Origin: Deltaproteobacteria bacterium
Lineage (GTDB): Bacteria; Desulfobacterota; JADFXK01
Length of the DNA stretch: 45,331 bases
NCBI GenBank assembly: GCA_015233625.1
Contig: JADFXK010000003.1
Location: 1-45,331 of the forward strand
Reading direction: 5' to 3'
This document shows, one piece after another, positions 8,746 to 33,431 of the stretch. Both the position numbers and the translations under genes were made by a program. Position 1 is the first letter of the stretch; each line of letters opens with the position of its first letter. The notes beneath the pieces were generated by a model that ran no database searches, was not told where the DNA came from, and worked only from the letters and a program-made list of their open reading frames with translations.

Positions 8746-8869
8746 TGGCCGAAATAGCGTAAATTGTATTTGCCCGGCCAGGGAGGCGGCGCTGGTAGTT
8801 CAACAAGTGACTGCTTCTCTTGGTCGGGCATATATTTTGCTATAAGAACCTTCAGCTATTTTGATCAGA

Positions 8870-8899
8870 CGGCTCTCAACAAAAGGAGCCGCTTTTTTT
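8870..8899 (+). terminator. Rho-independent terminator after the htrA-type gene
   Basis: CGGCTC (8870-8875) pairs with GAGCCG (8886-8891) across a 10-nt loop, followed by a T7 run at 8893-8899. Confidence 0.65.
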
Positions 8900-9070
8900 G
8901 TTTACTTGGTCGAGCTAAATAAGGTAACATATTAATTTATTGTCTTGAACGGAATGGCTGCCGGCGGTGGGAGGTGCGCTTCGCCCGGTAAGATTTCGGA
9001 CATTCGGATCAGGCACAATGTCGGGCAGAGCCGTGCGAGCGTCTAACAACGCGTTAAAGGAAATCAAAGT

Positions 9071-9754
9071 ATGAAGCCTTACGTCCCGCGGCAACTCTCC
9101 CTGCTGAACATTGATTGGGCTAATCACGTGTCGTTGATCGGTGAAGCCAACGCGGCCTTGGCCAGGTATGACGGTCTTCTATCAAGTATCGTCAACCCCG
9201 GCATCCTCCTATCTCCTTTAACGACTCAGGAAGCTGTGCTTTCTTCACGCATTGAGGGGACCCAGGCTACACTCGAAGAAGTCCTTGAATATGAAGCAGA
9301 TCCTACAGAAAAAATCGATCCCGGCAAACAGGCGGACATACAGGAGATTATCAATTATCGTCACGCCATGCGATATGCTGTTGAGCAGTTGAATCACAGA
9401 CCGCTCTGTTTAAACCTTCTACGTGAACTGCACGGGATTTTGTTGGACAGTGTTCGGGGCCGCAACAAGGCCCCGGGTGAGTTCCGTCGCATTCAGAATT
9501 ATATCGGGCCACCGGGTTGTTCCATCGAAGAAGCCACGTTTGTCCCACCGGCTGTTGATCAACTGGCCGCCGGCCTCGACGACTGGGAAAAATACGTCCA
9601 TTTTGACGAAAAAGATCGTCTGGTCCAACTTGCGGTAGTCAAAGCACAATTTGAACTGATTCATCCGTTCCTGGACGGCAACGGTAGGGTGGGGCGGATG
9701 CTCATTCCAATCTTTCTTTTTGAAAAGAAACTTCTTTCCAGTCCGATGTTCTAG
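9071..9754 (+). CDS. Fic-family protein, N-terminal part (Fic_N plus Fic core), ending at an in-frame TAG
   Basis: Canonical Fic motif HPFLDGNGRVGR. The ORF stops at TAG 9752-9754 and the next ORF starts at 9755 in the same frame. Confidence 0.8.
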   Translation: MKPYVPRQLSLLNIDWANHVSLIGEANAALARYDGLLSSIVNPGILLSPLTTQEAVLSSRIEGTQATLEEVLEYEADPTEKIDPGKQADIQEIINYRHAMRYAVEQLNHRPLCLNLLRELHGILLDSVRGRNKAPGEFRRIQNYIGPPGCSIEEATFVPPAVDQLAAGLDDWEKYVHFDEKDRLVQLAVVKAQFELIHPFLDGNGRVGRMLIPIFLFEKKLLSSPMF

Positions 9755-10189
9755 TTGAGCGCCTACCTTGAAGCCCATCGGGAAGTGTATTATGAACGGC
9801 TGCGTTCCATCTCCCATGATGACGACTGGAACGGCTGGATTCGGTTTTTCTTGAGCGCTCTAATTGAACAGGCACATGACAATACGGCCAAAGCGAAGGC
9901 CATTCTGGCGTTGTATGAACGGATGAAACGGGAGGTTCCGGAGATTACCCGTTCGCCATATGCTATCCAGGCGATAGATGCACTATTTGGCCTACCCGTC
10001 TTTACCAACTCCCACTTCATCGCCCGCTCAAATATCCCCAGCGCCACCGCCAAAAGGATCCTATCTGCACTTAAAGACAAGGGAATCATTCATGTTTTGT
10101 CTGGCGGGAGTGGACGGCGGGGGGCGACGATGGTTTTCCCCCAGCTTCTCGTGATAACTGAAGCGGATCCGTTTGAAGATCACTTATGA
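9755..10189 (+). CDS. Fic-family protein, C-terminal part (helical region and winged-helix), in-frame continuation
   Basis: LSAYLEAHREVYYERLRSI... is the conserved segment that directly follows the Fic core in full-length (~370 aa) homologues. 227 + 144 aa matches that size. Confidence 0.7.
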   Translation: MSAYLEAHREVYYERLRSISHDDDWNGWIRFFLSALIEQAHDNTAKAKAILALYERMKREVPEITRSPYAIQAIDALFGLPVFTNSHFIARSNIPSATAKRILSALKDKGIIHVLSGGSGRRGATMVFPQLLVITEADPFEDHL

Positions 10190-10213: not shown

Positions 10214-10412
10214 AAAATGGGAAAAGTGATCTACAAACTAGTTTATGGTGCATAGATGAGCCACAAAGATGCTCAGATGGACAGATAGTCTGGCCAGTAT
10301 TCTTTGGCCGCAAATGGGGTGGTGGGTCAACTCCCTGCATCCAACCCCGTCATCCTTCGGCCTGTCTTTCGGGCTGGTTCCACCCAAACCCACTTTGTCA
10401 CGGATCTGCACT

Positions 10413-11357
10413 ATGCCTAAAGAAGTAACTCACTGGTTGATTGCCCGACGATTGGCCCAGAAGTTGGATGGAACCGGCTACACCCCGGCATTGCTGCAGA
10501 ACCCCAACTGTCTCATGCTGGGGGCTGTTTTTCATGATGCCTTGTTTTACCTTCCGCCTTATGCTGCCATAGCCGATCATTGGCACGGTATTGACGGTGA
10601 AGATACTTTCGAGATGGTCCGGCGCCTCTCAGTCGCAGTTGATGAACCATCTTCTGACGGACCGTTCCGGGCATTTCTGGTCGGGGTGATTTCCCATATT
10701 TTCGCCGACATCACTTATCATCCCATGATCTTCCACCTGACGGGCCAATATCACGACGCTGACCGGCGAATGCGGTCTCGGGCCGTCCAGGCCCACCGGT
10801 TGTTCGAAACCAGGCTTGATCTCCTATATTGCGGGGGGCTCAAGCAGGTCAAGTCTTTTTCCCTGGGTGCCTATATCAGCGGCGCCGAGCTACCGTTTAA
10901 ATCTCTGATCCGCAAAGTCTGCCGCAAGCTGGCACCGGATGGGTTGGCCTACGCCATGTACTCAGCTTATCAGGTCTTTCGGCTGGCGCAGTTCATCGCT
11001 CAGCGCCAATACCTGGCCTCATGCCTCCATCAAGTGAAGGCCGGGCTACCTGACCTGGCCAGGGAGATCGCCTCGTTGATGTACGCCCCCCAACTGGCCG
11101 CCCCGGCCAATCAGCTTCCAGGCGAACTGGCCTATCGTCATCCAGTAACCGGGCAAGATGCCGTCGGCCACTTAGACGCCCTGCTGGACCTGGCCGCTAC
11201 CAGAGCTGCTGCTTTTTGTTGCCAGATTGAATCAGCCATCGTTTCGGGCCAACCGCTCGATCTCCCGGAGCCGGGACCGTCCATGTTGACGGGCCTGCTC
11301 GGGCGAAAGGTCAGCGAGATGAAATATTTCTCCCACGGCGAATACGCTGTCTTCTAA
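10413..11357 (+). CDS. Hypothetical protein, possibly zinc-dependent phospholipase C-like
   Basis: N-terminal MPKEVTHWLIARR and later ISHIFADITYHP resemble the His-rich pattern of PF00882-type proteins; this is from memory and unverified. Start chosen at the internal ATG; the ORF is open from 10269. Confidence 0.45.
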   Translation: MPKEVTHWLIARRLAQKLDGTGYTPALLQNPNCLMLGAVFHDALFYLPPYAAIADHWHGIDGEDTFEMVRRLSVAVDEPSSDGPFRAFLVGVISHIFADITYHPMIFHLTGQYHDADRRMRSRAVQAHRLFETRLDLLYCGGLKQVKSFSLGAYISGAELPFKSLIRKVCRKLAPDGLAYAMYSAYQVFRLAQFIAQRQYLASCLHQVKAGLPDLAREIASLMYAPQLAAPANQLPGELAYRHPVTGQDAVGHLDALLDLAATRAAAFCCQIESAIVSGQPLDLPEPGPSMLTGLLGRKVSEMKYFSHGEYAVF

Positions 11358-11505
11358 CCCGTGGTAGCCTGATTCGGTCTCATCTGGAGGATATCTCCAT
11401 TCAAGGGAGGCATCGTACCCGCCAATTGCAAATCGATATAGGTGGAATGCCTCCAGACCAGGCCGGGTTCAGTCTGTTACAATACCTGACATGGCCCAGG
11501 TCGAG

Positions 11506-11772
11506 TTATATCCCCTTCATCATTTGGTAGGCCCTCTCATACTCGCTCAGCATCTTTCGCCACTTCTGCAATTCCGCATGGTCATCGCGCCACTTCCGGA
11601 ACTCTCGTTTTTGTTTAGCCGGCCCATCCGGGGCTGGAGTCAACAAGAAGGCTTCCGTAGTCATCCCGTGTTTCTTCTCTCGGTCATCGAGCGCCTTGGT
11701 CAACTGCTTGACAACCCGGCGGCACAGGGATATCTCTCGGCCAATAGATATCTCATACTCGTCCGTATGCAT
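11506..11772 (-). CDS. Small (88 aa) charged, helical hypothetical protein
   Basis: Clean ORF with plausible helical/coiled-coil composition (EFRKWRDDHAELQKWRKMLSEYERAY). It is co-oriented with the two TIR genes. No family recognised. Confidence 0.45.
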   Translation of the reverse strand: MHTDEYEISIGREISLCRRVVKQLTKALDDREKKHGMTTEAFLLTPAPDGPAKQKREFRKWRDDHAELQKWRKMLSEYERAYQMMKGI

Positions 11773-12187
11773 GGCAATACTCTACTCCAAATGGGTGGGT
11801 GTTGAAGCTTCGCAATACGGATAGATTACCTTGCTACGTTTTGAATCGCAATTGAATTCTTAACATCGATCTTCGTTAACGCGTTATGACGCGGATTGAT
11901 CACGAGTCCGGCTGTGGGCGAGGCATTCCTTCCACCTATGGTTGGGGATTGATTAGAGAGTAAGCTGATCTGACTTGCCATACCTCTGTCAAGGGTTTTT
12001 GGCTTACGTGCTGGTCACTGGCGAATTGCCACGCTGCAATTGTGCTTACAGATAGCCCACAAAGCTTTCATCGTGCGATGGTGTGCCCGTTGGGACAATT
12101 TCCTATTACGCAAGTATGAAAAAAGCGGACCGTTATCATATATTGACCCTATTGCTGGTTTTGGTGTCGGAACTTAAATCAGGCATT

Positions 12188-12916
12188 TTATAGATCTATT
12201 AATGTGGCATGGACTTCAGAACTGATGCAGCGCTTGCCGGACTCTGACTTATGGGTATAGAATAACCTGGGCATCTGCCCTTGTGCGCCTAACAAATGAG
12301 ATAGAATAGAACATGCCAGCGTAGAATGGCGGGGTGGCACAATTCCAGCCCCCGCTTGCTTTATGTATGGCAGGGCTGCCTCTGCCATAGATTCTGCGAT
12401 CTTAGCCAGAGACGATGGATCATCAAGATCTGGACACGCAAAACCCACAAATTCACTATGGTCGAGAACGAGAATTCCTCTGACTTCGAATTCATTGTGC
12501 CCTGCCATATTGTAAACGCGCGGTATGTTTTTGCCGTCACCAAGATGATCCACAAGTCTATGTAATGCCAACCAATCCTTGGCTTTCTCTTTCATCTCTA
12601 AGCAATGAATCATATTGAGATAGGGTGGGATCACTATATCTTCAAGTACTATCGGGATGATATGGCGTTTGGCGGCAATAGCCATATCTATCTCGTCTTT
12701 GACCCAATCTGATTCAAGCGCTGCGGTTGTCAAAAGCACTAAGAAATAATCATAATCACTCAGCGCTTTTGAAAGTTCCTTTGGAAAGCGAGAACCTAAC
12801 TGAAGGCTGTGGTCATCTTTCCATACTTCATAGCCTGCACCCGTCAAACTGGTATACAGAAATTCCGCCACATCACTGGCGTCCTTGTGAGGATAAGATA
12901 TAAATACTCGGTTCAT
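12188..12916 (-). CDS. TIR-domain protein with an unassigned C-terminal module (paralogue 1)
   Basis: MNRVFISYPHKD..., YFLVLLT and SDWVKDEIDMA (Glu at the TIR catalytic position). AGGAGG lies 5 nt before the ATG. The C-terminal ~120 aa is conserved with paralogue 2. Confidence 0.8.
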   Translation of the reverse strand: MNRVFISYPHKDASDVAEFLYTSLTGAGYEVWKDDHSLQLGSRFPKELSKALSDYDYFLVLLTTAALESDWVKDEIDMAIAAKRHIIPIVLEDIVIPPYLNMIHCLEMKEKAKDWLALHRLVDHLGDGKNIPRVYNMAGHNEFEVRGILVLDHSEFVGFACPDLDDPSSLAKIAESMAEAALPYIKQAGAGIVPPRHSTLACSILSHLLGAQGQMPRLFYTHKSESGKRCISSEVHATLIDL

Positions 12917-12985
12917 AATAGCCTCCTAAAAGATGCCATGTGACAGTGGGTACTAAAGGATAATGAACAAATCTTCAGTATTTTA

Positions 12986-13011
12986 GTGCCAGAATCATAA
13001 CTGACTGTCAA
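12986..13011 (-). promoter_or_regulatory. Conserved TTGACA...CTGGCAC block upstream of TIR gene 1 (candidate promoter/operator)
   Basis: TTGACAgtcagttatgattCTGGCAC on the minus strand. The same 26-nt spacing occurs upstream of paralogue 2, while the intervening 5'UTR has diverged. Confidence 0.35.
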
Positions 13012-13489
13012 CAAGAAAACAGATTACTATGTATCTAAAACCATAACTTTAGAATGATTTTTATTTAATTTATGTATCGGCAAACAACCTGGTTGGGATA
13101 TGCCTCAGGCATCATTTATCAACCCATAAATATCATCCCTTAAAGAAACAAGGTCCATCTGCAACCGTGGCCATCAAAAAATGTGGGCATGGGCGGTGAA
13201 ATGCACCGCTATGATATGATTGGTAAGGTCATAAAGGTCGCTGATGGTTTCAAAGCCCCAGATCGAGTCCAGGGACGGTTAGATGATTTGGAGTACTGGA
13301 ATTATGTATGGGTAAGTTGCCGTTTGCCAACAGCATACCCGCTCAACGCCAACTTCAGCGGTGCACAACCACGCGGCAATTGAGCCTGCAAATAGCGCCA
13401 CAGAATTTTCACCGTGGGGTTAGTGCCCGCCGGGAGCATTTGCTATAAAATAAGGATGAAAAAGGAGATTTTTTTTTCATATATGGATC

Positions 13490-14248
13490 TTACTTTGGGT
13501 TTTGGCTCCGATACTCAAATCCGGCATCGCGCATATCTTGTAATGCGACATATACTTCAGAATTGATGCAGAAATTGTCTGGTCCTGGCTTGTGAGTGTA
13601 GAATAACCTGGGCATCTGACCTCGTGTGCCGAGCAAATGAGCTAGAATGGAACATGCTAATGCTGAATGTCCAGGTGGTACGATTCCAGCCCCTGCCCGC
13701 TCTATGTATGGTAGGGCTTTCTCTGCCATTGATTCTGCGATGTTAGCCATAGAAGATGGATCTTTTAGATCTGCAAGCACAAATTCACTATGGCCGAGAA
13801 TAAGAATTCCTTTGACTTCGAAATCCTTACGCCCCGACATGTTATAAACGCGCGGTATGTTTTTGCCGTCACCAAGATCATTCACAAGTTTATGTAATGC
13901 CTCCCAATCGTTAGTTCTTTCCTTCATCATTAAGCAGTGTCTCTTCTTGAGGTAGAGAGGGATCTCGATATCTTCGAGCACTATCGGGATTATGTTAAGC
14001 TCGGCTACAATAGCCATATCTATTTCATCTCTAACCCAATTTGATTCAAGCGCGGCAGTTGTCAAAAGCACTAAGAAATAATTGTGATCACCGAGTGCTT
14101 TTGAGAGTTCTGTTGGAAAGCTGGAACCTAAAGTAAGGCTGTGGTCATCTTTGAATACAGCGTAGCCGGCACCCATCAACCGGGTATACAGAAACTCCGC
14201 CACATCACTGGCATCCTTGTGGGAATACGACAGAAATACTCTGTTCAT
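13490..14248 (-). CDS. TIR-domain protein with an unassigned C-terminal module (paralogue 2)
   Basis: MNRVFLSYSHKD... and SNWVRDEIDMA. GGAGG precedes the ATG at 14248, which is homologous to the start of paralogue 1; the ORF is open to 14287. It has a 13-aa longer C-terminal tail. Confidence 0.8.
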   Translation of the reverse strand: MNRVFLSYSHKDASDVAEFLYTRLMGAGYAVFKDDHSLTLGSSFPTELSKALGDHNYFLVLLTTAALESNWVRDEIDMAIVAELNIIPIVLEDIEIPLYLKKRHCLMMKERTNDWEALHKLVNDLGDGKNIPRVYNMSGRKDFEVKGILILGHSEFVLADLKDPSSMANIAESMAEKALPYIERAGAGIVPPGHSALACSILAHLLGTRGQMPRLFYTHKPGPDNFCINSEVYVALQDMRDAGFEYRSQNPK

Positions 14249-14317
14249 AATGGCCTCCAAAAATCTGTCAAGTAACGGCAAATACACAAAGAGAAAGTCT
14301 CACTCTCAACTATATGT

Positions 14318-14343
14318 GTGCCAGAACAATGACTGATTGTCAA
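14318..14343 (-). promoter_or_regulatory. Conserved TTGACA...CTGGCAC block upstream of TIR gene 2
   Basis: TTGACAatcagtcattgttCTGGCAC on the minus strand, the counterpart of 12986-13011. Confidence 0.35.
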
Positions 14344-14755
14344 CAAGAAATTGGAATACTATGTAGCTAAAGCTATAACTATGGTATAATTTTTATTTAA
14401 TTTATGTATTGCCTAACATCATACCGGAACAGACATCACCGTGTCATCATTACTCCATAAGCAACACCCCACAAAGATCAATACCCCCATTAACCCGGGA
14501 CCATCAAAAAAGGTTGCCCTGTTAAGTGGCCATGTTAAGGTTGACATTGAATGTTGCTTGCGTTAAACTGAAAACATTGTGGAAATTAGTCGCGCTGAAA
14601 TTACCGAATGATTACCCAGCCGAACAACTAACTAGACGAACTCAGCAACCAAACACGGTCGAGTCTCCCGGTTGGTTGGAGGATATTCAATGGAAGATAT
14701 CCCGCCAGCTACCGGAGAATGGTGTCAACCCTATCATAATGGAACCTAATCACGC

Positions 14756-16100: not shown

Positions 16101-17921
16101 ATGGCCAGGATAAATCCAGAAAATATCTATTTGCTGCCCATCCTCCACGGTCGGATGGAATTTGCCGTGGAAGTGGCCAGGGTGTTCAAATCTTACCGGC
16201 CGCAGGCTGTGGCTGTGGAATTTCCGCCCACTATCCAGGCCCAGGTGATGGCCGGAGTGGCCCGGATGCCCCATCTATCAGTTATCCTCTATCCTGACGA
16301 GGGAGGCCACGTGTTTCTATTTTTGGAGCCCACCGATGGTCAGGTGGAGGCCCTGCGACTGGCCCTGGAACACCAGGTCCCCGTGACCTTTATGGATCGT
16401 GACACCCCCGGATATCCCCGGTACCAGGAAGCGCTACCCGATTCCTACGCCATAACCCGCATCGGCCACGAGGCCTACTGCCGGGCCTATGTGGAGCATG
16501 CCGGCTCAGGTCCGCGTGATCAGGCCGATCAACTCCGGGAAGCGGCCATGGCCTACCACCTCCAGGCCTTGTCTCAAAAGTATGACCGGGTCCTGGGCGT
16601 GCTCGGCTTGTACCATTATCCGGAAGTGACCCGGCTGCTCCAGCAACCTCAGGCCCAGCCATTGGGCCGACGCAAGCGGGAAGGGGTTACCTTAGCCAAT
16701 CTGAATGCCGAATCCAGCCGGGAAATCATGTCCGAGATTCCTTTTTTGGCCGCCGGCTACGAGGCCATGAGACGGGACATCGGGATATCCCCAGATGAGG
16801 CCGATCCGGACCGGCTGGTCCTGCAAGGAGAGTTGCTGAACCAGGCCCGGGAGCGCTATGCCCATAATTATAAGGAAAGAATCACCATCCCTCAACTGGC
16901 CGCTTTGAGACAGTTCGCCCGGAACTATGCCATCATCCAGGGCCAATTGACCCCGGACTTCTACCAGCACGTCATTGCCGCCAGAGGAGGGGCCGACGAT
17001 AATTTTTCGTATGAAGTGTGTGACCTGGGTTCCACCTATCCTTATCAAGACAAAGATTCCGCCCTGCCGGAAGTGACTCTCAGAGGCGAGGATTTATATC
17101 TTAATCAGAAGAAAATTCGGTTTCATCGCCGCATCAAGACCCTGCGGCGGCGGCTGGTTCCGGTGCCGGTCAAGCAGCGGCCGCGGGAAAAGACGCCGGG
17201 CGAATGGAAGAAAAATTTCAATCCCGATGCTATCTGCTCTTATCCGCCGGAGGACCTGGTTATCGAGGGGTATGGCGGATTCCTTAAGAAGAAGTCGCTG
17301 AAGATCCTGTCTGAAAAGAACTTTCGGGTGAGTCCTTTCAGCACCTCTTTGCACGACGGGATTGACGTCCGGGAGACGATTCGGAACTGGGCTCAAGGGA
17401 ACATCTACGTCAGGGAATATCTGCCGATTAAGGGTCGGGTGGGTTCGGTGGTGGTCATCTTTGACGAAGATTCAACCGAGTCGGGTCAGGAAAAATACCC
17501 CTGGTGCCTGACCTGGTTGGGGGAAAACAGCCAGGAATCGGATATGGCCTTTTATGCCACTCCGGCTGGCGAGCAAATGGTTGGTCCGGGCCTCTCGCTC
17601 TGCCATTACGGCGGTTTCATGCTGACCTACCCGCCCCTGCGGGTCTATGATATCTGGAGAGACCCTTTTTTCAATCCGGCCCGGTCCAAGCCGGAGAGGC
17701 TCTTGCTGGCCGCCATTGACTATTCTGAGGAAAATCATGTTCTCTACGTGGCCGCCAAACCGCCCCGTTCCTGGTGCCACAATGTGGCCAACCGGGTGGG
17801 AAAAAAAATCATCTACCTGCCCATCGGGCAACTCTCCCCGGTGATCCTAAAAAAGATCCGGACCTTTCATGTCCTGGCCGGCCATCATGTCCGAGGCTAC
17901 GCCAAGAATTATATTTGGTGA
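16101..17921 (+). CDS. Conserved hypothetical protein (606 aa), N-terminus TraB/DUF5682-like
   Basis: Long clean ORF with an SD. The N-terminal pattern (YLLPILHG...YRPQAVAVEFP...ALEHQVPVTFMDRD) resembles TraB/ChaN/DUF5682-type proteins from memory only. Confidence 0.55.
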   Translation: MARINPENIYLLPILHGRMEFAVEVARVFKSYRPQAVAVEFPPTIQAQVMAGVARMPHLSVILYPDEGGHVFLFLEPTDGQVEALRLALEHQVPVTFMDRDTPGYPRYQEALPDSYAITRIGHEAYCRAYVEHAGSGPRDQADQLREAAMAYHLQALSQKYDRVLGVLGLYHYPEVTRLLQQPQAQPLGRRKREGVTLANLNAESSREIMSEIPFLAAGYEAMRRDIGISPDEADPDRLVLQGELLNQARERYAHNYKERITIPQLAALRQFARNYAIIQGQLTPDFYQHVIAARGGADDNFSYEVCDLGSTYPYQDKDSALPEVTLRGEDLYLNQKKIRFHRRIKTLRRRLVPVPVKQRPREKTPGEWKKNFNPDAICSYPPEDLVIEGYGGFLKKKSLKILSEKNFRVSPFSTSLHDGIDVRETIRNWAQGNIYVREYLPIKGRVGSVVVIFDEDSTESGQEKYPWCLTWLGENSQESDMAFYATPAGEQMVGPGLSLCHYGGFMLTYPPLRVYDIWRDPFFNPARSKPERLLLAAIDYSEENHVLYVAAKPPRSWCHNVANRVGKKIIYLPIGQLSPVILKKIRTFHVLAGHHVRGYAKNYIW

Positions 17922-31460: not shown

Positions 31461-32099
31461 GCTTGGGCATGTTGTCTTGTCTATCATTTCTTCAACAAAT
31501 GATAACGCGGCCAAAGGAGCGTCACGGGATGCTTTCGACTATCTTCTCAACATTTTGCTTAAATCCGGATGAATCCCGGCCTTCGCTGCGTTCTCTCTAC
31601 GTTTACTCCGCGTCTTCAGGTGTTATATTGTTCGAACATTCTTTTTCCGTTCTTCGTGCCGGACCGGCGAGTTCGCCGTCACCCCAGAGGCCAGAACACT
31701 AAACACCCGGCCATAGCCCTGGCAGCCGTCACCCGGCCGCGGGGCCGCACCGCCGAAGGGGGCCATCAGCTCCCTGCCGCAACAGGCGATTGGTCATATT
31801 GCGCCGCTACTTCTTGTAAAAAAATCTATATTATCATGAATAGAAAGGGCTTGTCTCCGGTCCTGACGGTTCGGATCGGTGGTCGTCCTGAGCTTTTTGT
31901 TTGTCTCTTCAAATGGTCTGACCGGCTGAGAGCAAGAGGATTTTTGTTGCTTATTTCGGCGTCGCCTCTTGATTCCGTCTCTTCTCCCAGATCTGGGTCG
32001 AGGCCGTTCTTATTTCGTTAGTATTTATAATATTTGTCATTATCTCCCGATCTCGAGCGAATTTTGACACTTTCCTTCAGCGATTCGAGGAATGGAAGT

Positions 32100-33431
32100 A
32101 TGGACTCCGCAAATCTGTGGCAAAAGGTGAAAGAAAATATTGAGGCTGATCTCTCTCCTCAAAGTTTTTCCCTTTGGATTAAACCAATTGAAGTAATCAA
32201 CTCCTCTGCATCGGACATCACCTTTGCCTGCCCCAATAAGTTTTTCGTCAAGTGGGTCCAGGAAAACTACCTCCGGCTAATTCAGGAGAGAATGCGCGCT
32301 TTGCATTCCTGGGAACCCAAAATCAATTTCAAGGTGGTGACCCCCCGGGAGGACAAAAAACTTGATCCTTCGCAAACTCAATTGATTCTTCCAGAATTTC
32401 CCTTAAACGCGCCCCGTCAAAAGCGGCTTAACCCAAATTTCACTTTTGATCAATTTGTCACCGGTGACGGCAACAGCTTTGCCTATTCCGCGGCCATGGC
32501 CATGGCCCTGGGCCAAAACGTACATAATAATTTTTTATACATGAAGTCGAACACCGGCCTGGGCAAGAGTCACCTGTCCCATGCGGTGGGGAATCTGGTC
32601 TCAGATAAGAAATCGTCGTGTCGGGTGATTTACATCACGGCCGAAGATTTTACCAATGAAATGATTATCTCCATCAAACGGAGTTCCATCGACGCCTTCA
32701 AAGAAAAATATCGGAAGAATTGCGACATCTTGGTCATGGAGGACATCCATTTTTTGAGTGGGAAAGAAAAAACTCAAATGGAACTAGGCTACACCCTGGA
32801 CGCCCTGATTGAAAATGAAAAAAAGGTAATCTTTACTGGATCGCTAAAACCAAATGATATTCCGGACCTTCGGGGAAAACTCCGGTCACGCATTTGCTCC
32901 TCCCTGGTCACTTCCATTGAGCCTCCGGACCTGACCACCCGGCGCCGGATCCTGGACAAAAAAACCGCCCACACCGGCGTGCGGGTGCCCGATGATGTCC
33001 TCGACTTCCTGGCCACCAAAATTACTCAGGATATCCGTCAATTGGAAAGCAGCCTGAAGAGCCTCATTGCCAGGTCGTCCTTGCTGGATCGTCCCATTAC
33101 CCTCGACATGGCCGTGGAGATCACCGAAGGGCTGACCGATCAACGCCGGGATGTCACGTTGGAGATTATTCAACAGCTCGTTTTGGATTATTACCAGATC
33201 AACCTGGATGATCTACTGTCTAAGTCCCGGAAAAAGAACATTGCCTTACCTCGAAGTGTTTGCTTTTATCTGTGCCGTAAATTGACCAACCAGTCACTGG
33301 AACACATCGGCCGGGCTTTTCAACGCAACCATACCACCGTGCTCTACGCCATTAACAAAATCCAGGAACAAAAAAAGAAGAACCAACAACTGGCCAGAGA
33401 AATCGATTTTCTGGAGAAGAAACTTGATTAG
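32100..33431 (+). CDS. dnaA: Chromosomal replication initiator DnaA
   Basis: Domain I (LWQKVKENIEADLSPQSFSLWIKPI), Walker A GLGKSHL, Walker B ILVMEDIH and domain IV RNHTTVLYAINKI. The ATG at 32100 has GAGGAA upstream; the ORF is open from 32034. Confidence 0.93.
   Translation: MDSANLWQKVKENIEADLSPQSFSLWIKPIEVINSSASDITFACPNKFFVKWVQENYLRLIQERMRALHSWEPKINFKVVTPREDKKLDPSQTQLILPEFPLNAPRQKRLNPNFTFDQFVTGDGNSFAYSAAMAMALGQNVHNNFLYMKSNTGLGKSHLSHAVGNLVSDKKSSCRVIYITAEDFTNEMIISIKRSSIDAFKEKYRKNCDILVMEDIHFLSGKEKTQMELGYTLDALIENEKKVIFTGSLKPNDIPDLRGKLRSRICSSLVTSIEPPDLTTRRRILDKKTAHTGVRVPDDVLDFLATKITQDIRQLESSLKSLIARSSLLDRPITLDMAVEITEGLTDQRRDVTLEIIQQLVLDYYQINLDDLLSKSRKKNIALPRSVCFYLCRKLTNQSLEHIGRAFQRNHTTVLYAINKIQEQKKKNQQLAREIDFLEKKLD

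What the first reader, a model, noticed from the sequence alone, without database searches (positions are those of the whole stretch)
12188..14248. Two tandem, diverged TIR-domain proteins fused to an unassigned ~120-aa C-terminal module: candidate stand-alone NADase/defence module
Both ORFs (242 and 252 aa; about three quarters of aligned residues identical by eye) start with a bacterial TIR signature: MNRVF(I/L)SY.HKD, YFLVLLT, and S(D/N)WV(K/R)DEIDMA with Glu at the position of the catalytic NADase glutamate. Residues ~125-235 form a second module whose motifs are nearly invariant between the paralogues: GDGKNIPRVYNM, GIL(V/I)L(D/G)HSEF, DPSS.A.IAESMAE.ALPYI, and AGAGIVPP.HS.LACSIL.HLLG..GQMPRLFYTHK. 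The alternating strand/helix pattern suggests a small Rossmann- or CARF-like ligand-binding domain, but I cannot assign it to any family. No ThsA/SIR2-SLOG, CD-NTase, SAVED, STING, Argonaute, Cas or STAND partner is nearby, so it fits none of Thoeris, CBASS, SPARTA or type III CRISPR accessories. The genes sit in a visibly lower-GC stretch (~45% in the CDS and ~33% upstream, versus ~55-60% in the flanks). Next to them are a Fic gene, a PLC-like gene and a small co-oriented coiled-coil ORF (11506-11772). This context is typical of defence islands.
Basis: partly seen in the sequence, partly recalled or inferred. Interest (0 to 1): 0.8.

Follow-up and report, generated by a model that had tools for sequence, protein, structure and literature searches.

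The report
Orphan tandem TIR–Csx15 CRISPR effector genes
The two tandem genes each fuse an NAD-destroying TIR enzyme to a Csx15 sensor domain that recognises the cyclic-tetra-adenylate alarm signal of type III CRISPR systems, so they are a rare, apparently undescribed CRISPR accessory effector stranded away from any cas genes, and one copy is decaying.

Summary
Two tandem minus-strand genes (12188-12916, 242 aa; 13490-14248, 252 aa) are 73% identical. Each has an N-terminal TIR domain whose invariant Glu75 aligns with the SARM1/AbTIR catalytic glutamate.

The "unassigned" C-terminal module is a divergent Csx15 domain. Csx15 belongs to the CARF superfamily and binds cA4. The evidence is a PDB hit to Csx15 (9tet) and to the Csx15 domain of CbCash, and an hhalign probability of 99.7% (E 5e-26) against stand-alone proteins that pass NCBIfam CAS_Csx15.

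The fusion is rare: 38 hits among 1.84 billion representatives. In 10 of 15 homologous loci it lies inside or beside type III CRISPR-Cas operons, usually straight after cas6, and the four Cas10 proteins I checked all carry GGDD.

Most likely mechanism: cA4 makes Csx15 dimers stack, the TIR domains come together, and NAD+ is depleted. This parallels Cat1, TIR-SAVED and Cash.

In this window the genes are orphans. No cas gene or array lies within 45 kb, and they sit in a strain-variable, low-GC slot. Copy B looks intact. Copy A lost its conserved Arg tail to nonsense mutations and deviates at 8 of 68 conserved columns. The PLC-like and 88-aa genes are conserved backbone, and the Fic gene is a pseudogene.

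Verdict: a new variant of a known kind, of moderate interest.

The parts
13490..14248 (-). Copy B: full-length TIR-Csx15 gene (252 aa), apparently intact
   Evidence: ORF. TIR_2 E 1e-20. Matches the family residue at 66 of 68 conserved columns. AF2 model pLDDT 90.2, pTM 0.86.
13880..14248 (-). Copy B TIR domain (residues ~1-123) with S7, D34, S69, W71, E75
   Evidence: Pfam. Foldseek hits to SPARTA TIR-APAZ, SARM1 and AbTir at TMt up to 0.78. E75 aligns with the SARM1/AbTIR Glu.
13493..13879 (-). Copy B Csx15-like sensor domain (residues ~124-252). Motif I is NMSGR, followed by PPGH, LQDMR and YR.
   Evidence: NCBIfam CAS_Csx15 E 0.003, below cut-off. Domain profile vs PDB: Csx15 9tet E 3e-4, CbCash E 0.0034. 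hhalign 99.7% vs stand-alone Csx15. Domain model pLDDT 91.
12188..12916 (-). Copy A: TIR-Csx15 paralogue (242 aa) with an intact-looking TIR domain and a degenerating, C-terminally truncated Csx15 domain
   Evidence: PDB 9tet Csx15 E 2.5e-5. Deviates at 8 of 68 conserved columns, 7 of them in the Csx15 domain.
12149..12187 (-). Decayed remnant of copy A's C-terminal tail. After the TAA stop it reads N A * F K F R H Q N Q Q *, which aligns with copy B's D A G F E Y R S Q N P K *.
   Evidence: Sequence and DNA alignment of the two copies. The TAA replaces the family-invariant Arg of the LQDxR motif, and a TGA replaces the Gly three codons later.
12020..14521 (-). Tandem duplication of a ~1.33-kb unit: ~270 nt upstream region, the gene, and ~170 nt downstream
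   Evidence: the repeat finder D1-D3, spacing 1330-1341. Alignment 85% mean identity. dS 0.57, dN/dS 0.26.
12917..13191 (-). Upstream region of copy A (34% GC in the first 200 nt), with GGAGG 7 nt before the ATG. It is duplicated at 14249-14521 for copy B.
   Evidence: No convincing conserved sigma-70 promoter was called.
9071..10189 (+). Context only: SoFic-like Fic gene interrupted by an in-frame TAG (9752-9754). Absent from close relatives.
   Evidence: Pfam Fic_N/Fic. PADLOC SoFic 7.6e-76. Stop codon seen. Synteny gap.
10269..11772 (.). Context only: the PLC-like gene (10269-11357, +) and the 88-aa gene (11506-11772, -) are lineage backbone, not part of the module.
   Evidence: Syntenic at 88% identity in L025/L026; in L026 the 716 nt beyond the 88-aa gene (locus 1-716) do not match the window, while L025 ends 269 nt past it. 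The 88-aa family has 80 homologues.

Best explanation
Each gene encodes a two-domain type III CRISPR ancillary effector: an N-terminal TIR NADase fused to a C-terminal Csx15 domain. Csx15 is the CARF-superfamily sensor of cyclic tetra-adenylate (cA4).

Inferred mechanism: when a type III Cas10 complex detects foreign RNA, it makes cA4. cA4 is bound at Csx15 dimer faces and drives head-to-tail stacking or filament formation. This has been shown for stand-alone Csx15 and for the Schlafen-Csx15 effector Cash. Stacking brings TIR domains from neighbouring dimers together to form composite NADase sites, as in Cat1 and TIR-SAVED. NAD+ is depleted and the infected cell arrests.

In this window the genes are orphans. 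They are a tandemly duplicated ~1.33-kb unit in a low-GC, strain-variable slot of an uncultured 'Deltaproteobacteria' MAG chromosome, with no cas genes within 45 kb. Copy B looks functional and could only act in trans with a type III system elsewhere in the genome. Copy A keeps a conserved TIR domain but has a degenerating sensor domain, including loss of the Arg-bearing C-terminal tail through nonsense mutation.

Shown here: the domain identities, conservation of the catalytic residues, the family's linkage to type III loci, the orphan status, and the decay of copy A. Inferred: cA4 as the ligand, filament activation, NADase output, and action in trans.
For: TIR domain: Pfam TIR_2 E 3e-22 and 1e-20. 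The fold matches SARM1, AbTir and SPARTA TIR. E75 aligns with the SARM1/AbTIR Glu. S7, D34, S69 and E75 are invariant or nearly so, and by position they correspond to the Cat1 NADase residues S7, D33, S68 and E74 (PMC12162218; coordinates).

Csx15 domain: phmmer hit to PDB 9tet 'CRISPR-associated Csx15', E 2.5e-5. The domain profile hits 9tet (E 3e-4, full domain), CbCash 9ylu (E 0.0034) and 9teu. The same profile retrieves stand-alone 107-127-aa proteins, and 8 of 9 pass the NCBIfam CAS_Csx15 cut-off. hhalign against these gives 99.7%, E 5e-26 over 111 columns. Foldseek top hits for the domain model are all CARF/SAVED cOA sensors, including Cap5 8fmf, which the Csx15 authors also report.

Context: the gene follows cas6 directly at the end of Cas10-RAMP-Csx19-RAMP-Cas6 operons in L003, L007, L008 (plus a second contig) and L009. 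Cas6 is adjacent in L012 and L020. The gene ends a III-A operon in L018. It lies beside Cas10/RAMP genes in L004, L005 and L010, with CRISPR arrays in L005 and L010. All four Cas10 proteins checked have GGDD. Other cOA effectors are neighbours: Cas_NE0113 CARF and TM-SAVED.

Literature: Csx15 binds cA4 and oligomerises (PMC13148439). Cash is cA4-activated through its Csx15 domain (PMC13462974). In Cat1, the TIR site forms between stacked dimers.

Window specifics: dN/dS is 0.26. Copy B matches 66 of 68 conserved columns and copy A 60 of 68.
Against: No cas gene, CRISPR array or any homologue of 28 cas/accessory proteins lies in the 45-kb window, so a cA4 source is unproven for this genome. The NCBIfam CAS_Csx15 score (16-18 bits) is below the 35-bit cut-off. 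The His that stand-alone Csx15 needs for cA4-induced oligomerisation and ring-nuclease activity (Pf H82 / Cli H90) is Leu in the fused family. The motif I His is Arg in copy B and the Ser is Ala in copy A. Foldseek support for the domain fold is weak (best E 0.02, TM 0.4-0.5), and the library lacks Csx15 structures. Three of 15 loci (the window, L001/L002, L013) have no cas or cOA-sensor (CARF/SAVED) genes nearby, and L014 and L015 have only such sensor genes. No multimer model or biochemistry was possible.
Confidence: 0.65

Rival explanations
1. The window's two genes are relics. They are orphaned effector genes no longer connected to any signalling system and are drifting towards pseudogenes, so they have no current function.
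For: Copy A has two in-frame stops in its former tail and departs at 8 of 68 conserved columns. The adjacent Fic gene is a pseudogene. There is no cas gene in 45 kb. The slot is strain-variable.
Against: dN/dS between the copies is 0.26 (0.18 in the TIR domain) at dS 0.57, so selection acted over most of their divergence. Copy B is intact at 66 of 68 conserved columns and has the full tail. Both copies keep their ATG and GGAGG. Orphan Csx15 genes are common, and at least one (PfCsx15) is biochemically active.
Confidence: 0.2
2. One reading: a stand-alone, CRISPR-independent TIR NADase defence module. The C-terminal domain would sense some other ligand or a phage cue directly, perhaps together with neighbouring genes.
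For: No cas, CD-NTase or ThsA gene lies in the window. L001/L002 and L013 are also cas-free, next to PD-(D/E)XK, PLD, Schlafen/SMC-like genes. The Csx15 His82/90 equivalent is lost, so the ligand mode may differ.
Against: Ten of 15 loci are physically inside or beside type III operons, often with overlapping or near-abutting cas6 stop and TIR start. The domain is homologous to a proven cA4 sensor. The proposed partners (88-aa ORF, PLC) are backbone genes; in L026 unrelated sequence lies beyond the 88-aa gene where the window has the TIR genes. No conserved downstream partner exists.
Confidence: 0.1
3. The protein is mainly a regulator: a cA4 sponge or ring nuclease like stand-alone Csx15, or a self-limiting effector like TSR1. 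The TIR domain would serve as a scaffold or a minor activity.
For: Stand-alone Csx15 proteins sponge or slowly cleave cA4. The motif I His, catalytic in CliCsx15, is kept in most family members. TSR1 shows that TIR effectors can carry their own ring nuclease.
Against: The second residue required for ring-nuclease activity (Cli H90) is Leu in the family, and Gln in the non-degrading effector Cash. The TIR active-site residues are invariant or nearly so among close homologues. Copy B has Arg at the motif I His.
Confidence: 0.07
4. A Thoeris-like ThsB: the TIR domain makes a gcADPR-type signal for a separate effector.
For: Pfam ThsB_TIR is marginally above cut-off (22.5 vs 21.2 bits). PADLOC ThsB models and NCBIfam ThcB4 hit the TIR region.
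Against: NCBIfam ThcB4 scores 69 bits against a 220-bit cut-off. All hits cover only the generic TIR core. No ThsA/SIR2-SLOG or Macro partner is present in the window or in 15 homologous loci.
Confidence: 0.03

Closest known systems
Cat1 (CRISPR-associated TIR 1; TIR-CARF, PDB 9MUD/9MUE; Science 2025, PMC12162218)
   Same: Same order and size: an N-terminal TIR and a C-terminal cOA sensor, 263 aa versus 242-252 aa. Both are type III accessories. Cat1's active-site residues S7, D33, S68 and E74 have counterparts S7, D34, S69 and E75. The expected logic is also the same: cA4 glues sensor dimers together and stacked TIRs form the NADase site.
   Different: The sensor is not the Cat1 CARF. The C-terminal profile finds Csx15 and Cash but not Cat1 at E<=1. 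Only the TIR half aligns. This looks like an independent fusion of TIR to a different CARF-superfamily branch.
Cash (CRISPR-associated Schlafen; Schlafen-Csx15, PDB 9YLU; Nat Commun 2026, PMC13462974)
   Same: It has a C-terminal Csx15 sensor domain with the shared PG...LA...G...P...LQDIRD motifs. It is cA4-activated and forms filaments. Like the present family, it lacks the His82/90 of stand-alone Csx15.
   Different: The effector domain is a Schlafen tRNase, not a TIR NADase. Homology is restricted to the Csx15 half (E 0.0034).
Stand-alone Csx15 (NCBIfam NF040560; PfCsx15/CliCsx15, PDB 9TET/9TEU; PMC13148439)
   Same: Homologous fold and motifs: N-x-S-G-H motif I, PG-x-S/A-LA, and C-terminal Arg residues. 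hhalign 99.7%. It binds cA4 and is linked to type III loci but is often orphan.
   Different: Stand-alone Csx15 is ~110-145 aa with no effector domain and acts as a ring nuclease or sponge that damps signalling. The domain here is fused to TIR, scores below the NCBIfam cut-off, and has Leu for His82/90.
TIR-SAVED / TSR1 (cA3-activated TIR effectors of CBASS and type III CRISPR; PDB 7QQK; bioRxiv 2026.09.16.751991)
   Same: A TIR NADase activated by cyclic-oligoadenylate-driven assembly of a CARF/SAVED-superfamily sensor.
   Different: The sensor is a ~300-aa pseudo-dimeric SAVED domain and the ligand is cA3. The proteins are larger (~430 aa or more). PADLOC SAVED_TIR models match only the TIR core here.

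Membership tests
TIR domain NADases (Pfam PF13676 TIR_2) | Profile match above the curated cut-off | tested here: met
   79.7 and 74.9 bits against a 28-bit cut-off.
TIR domain NADases (Pfam PF13676 TIR_2) | Catalytic glutamate in the W-x-x-x-E motif, aligned with SARM1 E642 and the AbTIR Glu | tested here: met
   E75 aligns in the phmmer alignments. It is invariant in 20 close homologues. It is Gln in 2 distant members.
TIR domain NADases (Pfam PF13676 TIR_2) | Flavodoxin-like TIR fold | tested here: met
   AF2 pLDDT 90. Foldseek matches SARM1, AbTir, SPARTA TIR and the Hydra TRR-2 TIR domain (TMt up to 0.78); best E 3.6e-6 (SPARTA TIR-APAZ).
TIR domain NADases (Pfam PF13676 TIR_2) | NAD+ cleavage activity | not testable with these tools
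   Needs a biochemical assay.
Csx15 (NCBIfam NF040560, CARF superfamily) | Score above the NCBIfam equivalog cut-off (35 bits) | tested here: not met
   Copy B scores 16-18 bits (E 0.003-0.01). Copy A has no hit.
Csx15 (NCBIfam NF040560, CARF superfamily) | Sequence homology to experimentally characterised Csx15 domains | tested here: met
   9tet E 2.5e-5. Profile: 9tet 3e-4, CbCash 0.0034, 9teu 0.076. hhalign 99.7%, E 5e-26 against proteins that pass NF040560.
Csx15 (NCBIfam NF040560, CARF superfamily) | Motif I Ser-Gly-His after beta1 (Pf S9/H11, Cli H13) | tested here: inconclusive
   The family consensus is NMSGH. Copy A has AGH and copy B has SGR. Arg, Tyr or Gln occur at the His position in other members.
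Csx15 (NCBIfam NF040560, CARF superfamily) | Central His (Pf H82 / Cli H90) needed for oligomerisation and ring-nuclease activity | tested here: not met
   It aligns with Leu in the fused family. It is Gln in CbCash.
Csx15 (NCBIfam NF040560, CARF superfamily) | C-terminal Arg residues that contact the ligand phosphates (Pf R116, R120, R123) | tested here: inconclusive
   Equivalents of R116 and R123 are present in copy B (R240, R247) and in the family. The R120 equivalent is Phe. Copy A has lost all of them by truncation.
Csx15 (NCBIfam NF040560, CARF superfamily) | cA4 binding and cA4-induced oligomerisation | not testable with these tools
   Needs DLS, SEC or cryo-EM with cA4. No multimer predictor was available.
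Type III CRISPR-Cas ancillary (cOA-activated) effectors | Recurrent genomic linkage to type III cas operons with a cyclase-competent Cas10 | tested here: met
   For the family: 10 of 15 loci are linked, GGDD is present in 4 of 4 Cas10, and arrays are present.
Type III CRISPR-Cas ancillary (cOA-activated) effectors | Linkage to a type III locus in this particular genome | tested here: not met
   There is none in the 45-kb window. The rest of the genome was not available.
Cat1 (TIR-CARF) | C-terminal sensor homologous to the Cat1 CARF domain | tested here: not met
   Cat1 is absent from the C-terminal profile hits at E<=1. Alignments to Cat1 cover TIR residues 2-95 only.
Thoeris ThsB | ThsB-specific model above cut-off and a ThsA partner nearby | tested here: not met
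   ThcB4 scores 69 bits against 220. Pfam ThsB_TIR is marginal. No ThsA-like gene is present in any locus.
TIR-SAVED (CBASS / type III) | SAVED domain C-terminal to the TIR | tested here: not met
   PADLOC SAVED_TIR matches residues 3-83 only. No Pfam SAVED hit.

The most novel reading that the evidence does not exclude
The tandem pair has subfunctionalised into a hetero-oligomeric, trans-acting cA4 sensor. Copy B keeps the Arg-bearing 'top' face of the Csx15 stack. Copy A has lost that face but keeps the motif I His 'bottom' face and an intact TIR, so it could only join the stack at one end. A would therefore cap or tune B filaments, acting as a built-in limiter or threshold-setter of NAD+ depletion in place of a ring nuclease. 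The pair would serve a type III system encoded elsewhere. More broadly, TIR-Csx15 would be a third, independent marriage of TIR to a CARF-superfamily sensor.
Probability: 0.1. Interest if true: 0.6.

Novelty: new variant of a known kind. Interest (0 to 1): 0.45.

Why it matters
cOA-activated TIR NADases (Cat1, TIR-SAVED, TSR1) and the first Csx15-fused effector (Cash) were characterised only in 2022-2026. None of the papers I could search describes a TIR-Csx15 fusion. If it is confirmed, three things follow. TIR would have been recruited independently to a third branch of the CARF/SAVED superfamily. A compact (~250 aa) system would become available to ask how a minimal Csx15 dimer stack positions TIR domains. 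The known effector repertoire of III-D-like and III-A systems would grow. The orphan, duplicated, partly decayed state in this window also illustrates how ancillary effectors detach from cas operons and turn over in variable chromosomal slots. The practical lesson is that TIR-plus-unknown-domain proteins outside CRISPR loci should be screened against Csx15-type sensors before being called new stand-alone systems.

Tried and rejected
1. Conserved downstream partner. The small genes that follow TIR-Csx15 in 8 loci are unrelated to each other and to the window, apart from duplicate contigs. Rejected.
2. The 88-aa ORF as a partner. It belongs to a widespread ~87-aa family and is syntenic backbone in relatives; in L026 the sequence beyond it is unrelated to the TIR genes. 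Rejected.
3. CRISPR array, cas remnants or structured RNA in the window. TRF, the repeat finder, Rfam and tblastn with 28 cas/accessory proteins all came back negative.
4. Promoter and terminator scan. The counts are no better than shuffles, and no site is conserved between the copies. I make no promoter claim.
5. Foldseek on the full-length model returns only TIR hits. The domain-only model gives weak CARF/SAVED hits because the library predates the Csx15 structures.
6. Viral origin. IMG/VR holds only TIR-only matches.
7. Residue-level mapping of the adenine-stacking Phe (Pf F106, CbCash F275). The HMM alignments are offset by 2-4 residues in that loop, so I make no claim beyond noting that copy A replaces the near-invariant Phe229 with Arg.
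8. Makarova et al. 2020 (CARF classification, PMC7498327) is not held. I could not check whether a TIR-Csx15 architecture is listed there.
9. The broad alignment A5 was too divergent for a locus scan.
10. tRNA genes or mobile-element boundaries. No tRNA genes and no flanking direct repeats beyond the duplication itself.
Full report
OBSERVATION

The two ORFs are real and lie where stated on the minus strand. Copy A is 12188-12916 (242 aa). Copy B is 13490-14248 (252 aa from the ATG). They share 73% identity over the full length, E 1e-130. Each matches Pfam TIR_2 far above the cut-off (79.7 and 74.9 bits against 28; residues 4-121). Residues ~124 to the end have no Pfam hit even at E 10.

GC is 45% in both CDS and 34-35% in the 200 nt upstream of each.

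The duplication is a ~1.33-kb unit made of ~270 nt of upstream sequence, the gene, and ~170 nt downstream. It spans about 12020-14521. Both copies keep a GGAGG 7 nt before the ATG. That supports the ATG start for copy B rather than the upstream GTG.

WHAT THE C-TERMINAL MODULE IS

A plain phmmer search of PDB sequences with copy A hits 9tet_A, 'CRISPR-associated Csx15'. The match covers residues 133-228 at E 7e-5, or E 2.5e-5 with the domain alone. NCBIfam CAS_Csx15 (NF040560) matches copy B weakly, at 16-18 bits against a 35-bit cut-off.

A profile of the domain built from 20 homologues (A4) hits three PDB entries: 9tet over essentially the whole domain (E 3e-4), the Csx15 domain of the Schlafen-Csx15 effector CbCash 9ylu (E 0.0034, including the LQDIRD motif), and a second Csx15, 9teu.

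An exhaustive HMMER search of 1.84 billion representatives with that profile returns only 38 proteins at E<=1e-3:
- about 22 are ~245-270 aa with the domain at the C-terminus;
- about 10 are stand-alone proteins of 107-127 aa;
- two are repetitive false positives.

Eight of the nine stand-alone proteins I tested pass the curated NCBIfam CAS_Csx15 cut-off. Profile-profile comparison of the fused domain with those proteins gives 99.7% probability, E 5e-26 over 111 columns.

I conclude that the module is a divergent Csx15 domain. 'Cannot be assigned' no longer holds.

WHAT IS KNOWN ABOUT CSX15 (from papers)

Stand-alone Csx15 is a dimeric CARF-superfamily protein. It binds cA4 in a site shared between head-to-tail stacked dimers and oligomerises on binding. 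Some members sponge cA4 and others cleave it slowly. The key residues are the motif I Ser/His (Pf S9/H11, Cli H13), a central His (Pf H82, Cli H90) and C-terminal arginines (Pf R116, R120, R123) (PMC13148439). Cash, a Schlafen-Csx15 fusion, is activated by cA4 bound at the Csx15 dimer and forms filaments. Its authors call it the first mechanistically characterised Csx15-fused effector (PMC13462974).

Mapping these residues through the alignments gives the following:
- The fused family keeps N-x-S-G-H as its consensus. Copy A has AGH and copy B has SGR. Arg, Tyr or Gln occur at the His position in other members.
- It keeps the equivalents of R116 and R123 (R240 and R247 in copy B).
- It has Leu at the H82/H90 position, where Cash has Gln.

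Because H90 is needed for ring-nuclease activity in CliCsx15, I infer that the fused domain is a sensor rather than a degrader.

THE TIR DOMAIN

The full-length AF2 model is confident (pLDDT 90.2, pTM 0.86). Its N-terminal half matches SPARTA TIR-APAZ, SARM1, AbTir, Cat1 and TIR-SAVED. E75 in W-V-x-D-E-I aligns with the SARM1 'WVhkEI' glutamate and with AbTIR, and it is invariant in 20 close homologues.

The Cat1 paper lists S7, H8, N9, N10, D33, S68 and E74 as lining the NADase pocket. The family-conserved S7, D34, S69 and E75 sit at matching positions. This is inferred from alignment coordinates 2-92 versus 2-95, not from a residue-level superposition. A catalytically competent NADase is therefore likely. 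Two distant members (P0144, P0152) have Gln instead of the Glu.

GENOMIC CONTEXT OF THE FAMILY

The full-length protein is rare. There are 20 homologues at 43-73% identity among 5.8 billion clustered proteins, three loci in 185,579 species genomes (Acidobacteria, Chloroflexi and an unclassified MAG), nine in JGI metagenomes, and none on IMG/VR viral contigs beyond TIR-only matches. The informative contexts are:
- L003, L007, L008 (plus a second contig) and L009: Cas10-RAMP-x-RAMP-Csx19-RAMP-Cas6, then TIR-Csx15 on the same strand, abutting or overlapping cas6. This is III-D-like by the Csx19 marker.
- L020 and L012: Cas6 is adjacent.
- L018: a type III-A operon (Cas6, HD-Cas10/Csm1, Csm2, RAMPs), then TIR-Csx15.
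- L004: TIR-Csx15 lies upstream of a Cas10 operon.
- L005/L011: the gene follows a 909-aa RAMP fusion, with a CRISPR array 7.5 kb downstream.
- L010: RAMPs, an AAA_15/21 ATPase, a Schlafen-AlbA_2 protein, TIR-Csx15, a Cas_NE0113 CARF protein and a 13-repeat array.
- L014 and L015: other cOA-type sensors (TM-SAVED, Cas_NE0113) but no cas genes on short contigs.
- L001/L002 and L013: no cas genes.

That makes 10 of 15 independent loci physically linked to type III cas genes, and 2 more linked to cOA effectors. All four Cas10 proteins I inspected carry GGDD, so these systems can signal. The small genes downstream of TIR-Csx15 are not a conserved family.

THE WINDOW ITSELF

The window is chromosomal. 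It carries ClpB, GDH, HtrA, DnaA and fumarase, among others. It comes from an uncultured 'Deltaproteobacteria bacterium' lineage: the best DnaA match is 97% identical to a MAG and the next best is only 47%. It contains no cas gene, no CRISPR array, no Rfam family, and no tblastn match to 28 cas/accessory proteins taken from the homologous loci.

Two relatives at 88-92% nucleotide identity (L025, L026) share the synteny ClpB ... HtrA - PLC-like - 88-aa gene. They lack the Fic segment. Beyond the 88-aa gene L026 continues into unrelated sequence, whereas the L025 contig ends 269 nt past that gene. So about 11.8-14.7 kb is a strain-variable slot. The PLC-like gene and the 88-aa gene are backbone, not partners of the TIR genes; the 88-aa gene belongs to a widespread ~87-aa family with 80 homologues. 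The SoFic-like Fic gene is split by an in-frame TAG at 9752-9754.

THE TWO COPIES ARE NOT EQUIVALENT

Copy A ends 13 codons early. A TAA replaces the family-invariant Arg of LQDxR, and a TGA replaces the Gly three codons later. The remnant still aligns with copy B's tail. Among 68 columns conserved in at least 85% of the 18 other homologues, copy A departs at 8. Seven of these are in the Csx15 domain: G152D, G196R in the PPGH motif, A206S, N213G, F229R, Q240I and the lost Arg. Copy B departs at 2.

dN/dS between the copies is 0.26 overall (0.18 in TIR, 0.37 in Csx15) at dS 0.57. Both copies were therefore constrained for most of their history, with relaxation concentrated in copy A's sensor.

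MECHANISM

Best-supported model (confidence ~0.65):
1. A type III complex elsewhere in the genome makes cA4.
2. Csx15 dimers of the effector bind cA4 and stack.
3. TIR domains from adjacent dimers form composite sites.
4. NAD+ is cleaved and the cell arrests.

The domain identities, the catalytic residues and the cas linkage are shown here. The ligand, the assembly and the output are inferred from Csx15, Cash, Cat1 and TIR-SAVED.

The main weaknesses are:
- the absence of a cA4 source in the window;
- the sub-threshold NCBIfam score;
- the loss of His82/90;
- the Arg at motif I in copy B.

COMPARISON AND NOVELTY

The protein works like Cat1 (TIR-CARF, cA4), TIR-SAVED/TSR1 (cA3) and Cash (Schlafen-Csx15, cA4). 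It is not a member of the Cat1 family, because its sensor does not match the Cat1 CARF domain. It is not a member of TIR-SAVED or ThsB either. Its sensor belongs to the Csx15 branch but falls outside the curated equivalog model.

Searches of the held literature for Csx15, alone and together with TIR, found no description of a TIR-Csx15 fusion.

I therefore rate it a new variant of a known kind and give it moderate interest (0.45). It is a predictable recombination of known modules rather than a new principle.

Noticed in passing
window 9071-10189 (+): A SoFic-like Fic gene (PADLOC SoFic E 7.6e-76) is interrupted by an in-frame TAG at 9752-9754, where family members would continue. The whole segment (~8830-10160) is missing from two ~90%-identical relatives, so it is a strain-specific, pseudogenised defence gene.
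   Followed up: partly
window 11506-11772 (-): The 88-aa coiled-coil ORF is a real gene of a widespread ~87-aa family (80 homologues, no Pfam domain, mostly Desulfobacterota-type MAGs, at least two copies in a related MAG). It is syntenic with the PLC-like gene in relatives; in L026 the sequence beyond it is unrelated to the TIR genes. Function unknown.
   Followed up: partly
window ~11800-14750, compared with L026:1-716: The slot between the 88-aa gene and the inositol monophosphatase gene is strain-variable. The relative L026 carries an unrelated partial ORF there (minus strand, running off the contig end) instead of the TIR-Csx15 pair. The relative L025 contig ends about 270 nt past the 88-aa gene, close to the duplication boundary.
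   Followed up: partly
L004:3572-4327, L015:965-1666, L014:3914-4588: Directly upstream of TIR-Csx15, three loci encode ~225-250-aa proteins with an N-terminal hydrophobic segment. The L004 and L015 proteins are homologous (E 1e-10), and the L004 protein carries a 'TGGT' motif reminiscent of CARF. The L014 protein is a SAVED protein with an N-terminal hydrophobic segment (32 bits). These loci seem to combine membrane and NADase cOA effectors.
   Followed up: partly
L010:8449-9429 and L013:1877-3034: Schlafen/AlbA_2-domain proteins and AAA_15/21 or SMC-like ATPases recur next to TIR-Csx15 (L010, L005, L013). This is notable because Schlafen-Csx15 (Cash) is the other known Csx15-fused effector.
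   Followed up: no
L009:10444-10893: A second, unrelated TIR-domain gene (TIR_2 E 8e-23, cut by the contig end) immediately follows TIR-Csx15 at the end of a type III operon.
   Followed up: no
P0144, P0152 (distant family members): Two TIR-Csx15-like proteins have Gln in place of the catalytic Glu and lack the FISY strand motif. This suggests catalytically dead TIR variants within the family.
   Followed up: no
L010:4370-6793: An 807-aa RAMP protein in a type III locus carries a C-terminal cold-shock (CSD) domain (E 1e-11), an unusual fusion.
   Followed up: no
window 16101-17921 (+): A 606-aa ORF has only a weak, sub-threshold match to DUF5682 (21 bits against 26). It is otherwise unannotated.
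   Followed up: no
window 32034-33431 (+): dnaA lies in the window, so the region is near the chromosomal replication origin. The closest DnaA (97%) is from a 'Deltaproteobacteria bacterium' MAG and the next best is only 47%, which indicates a poorly sampled lineage.
   Followed up: partly
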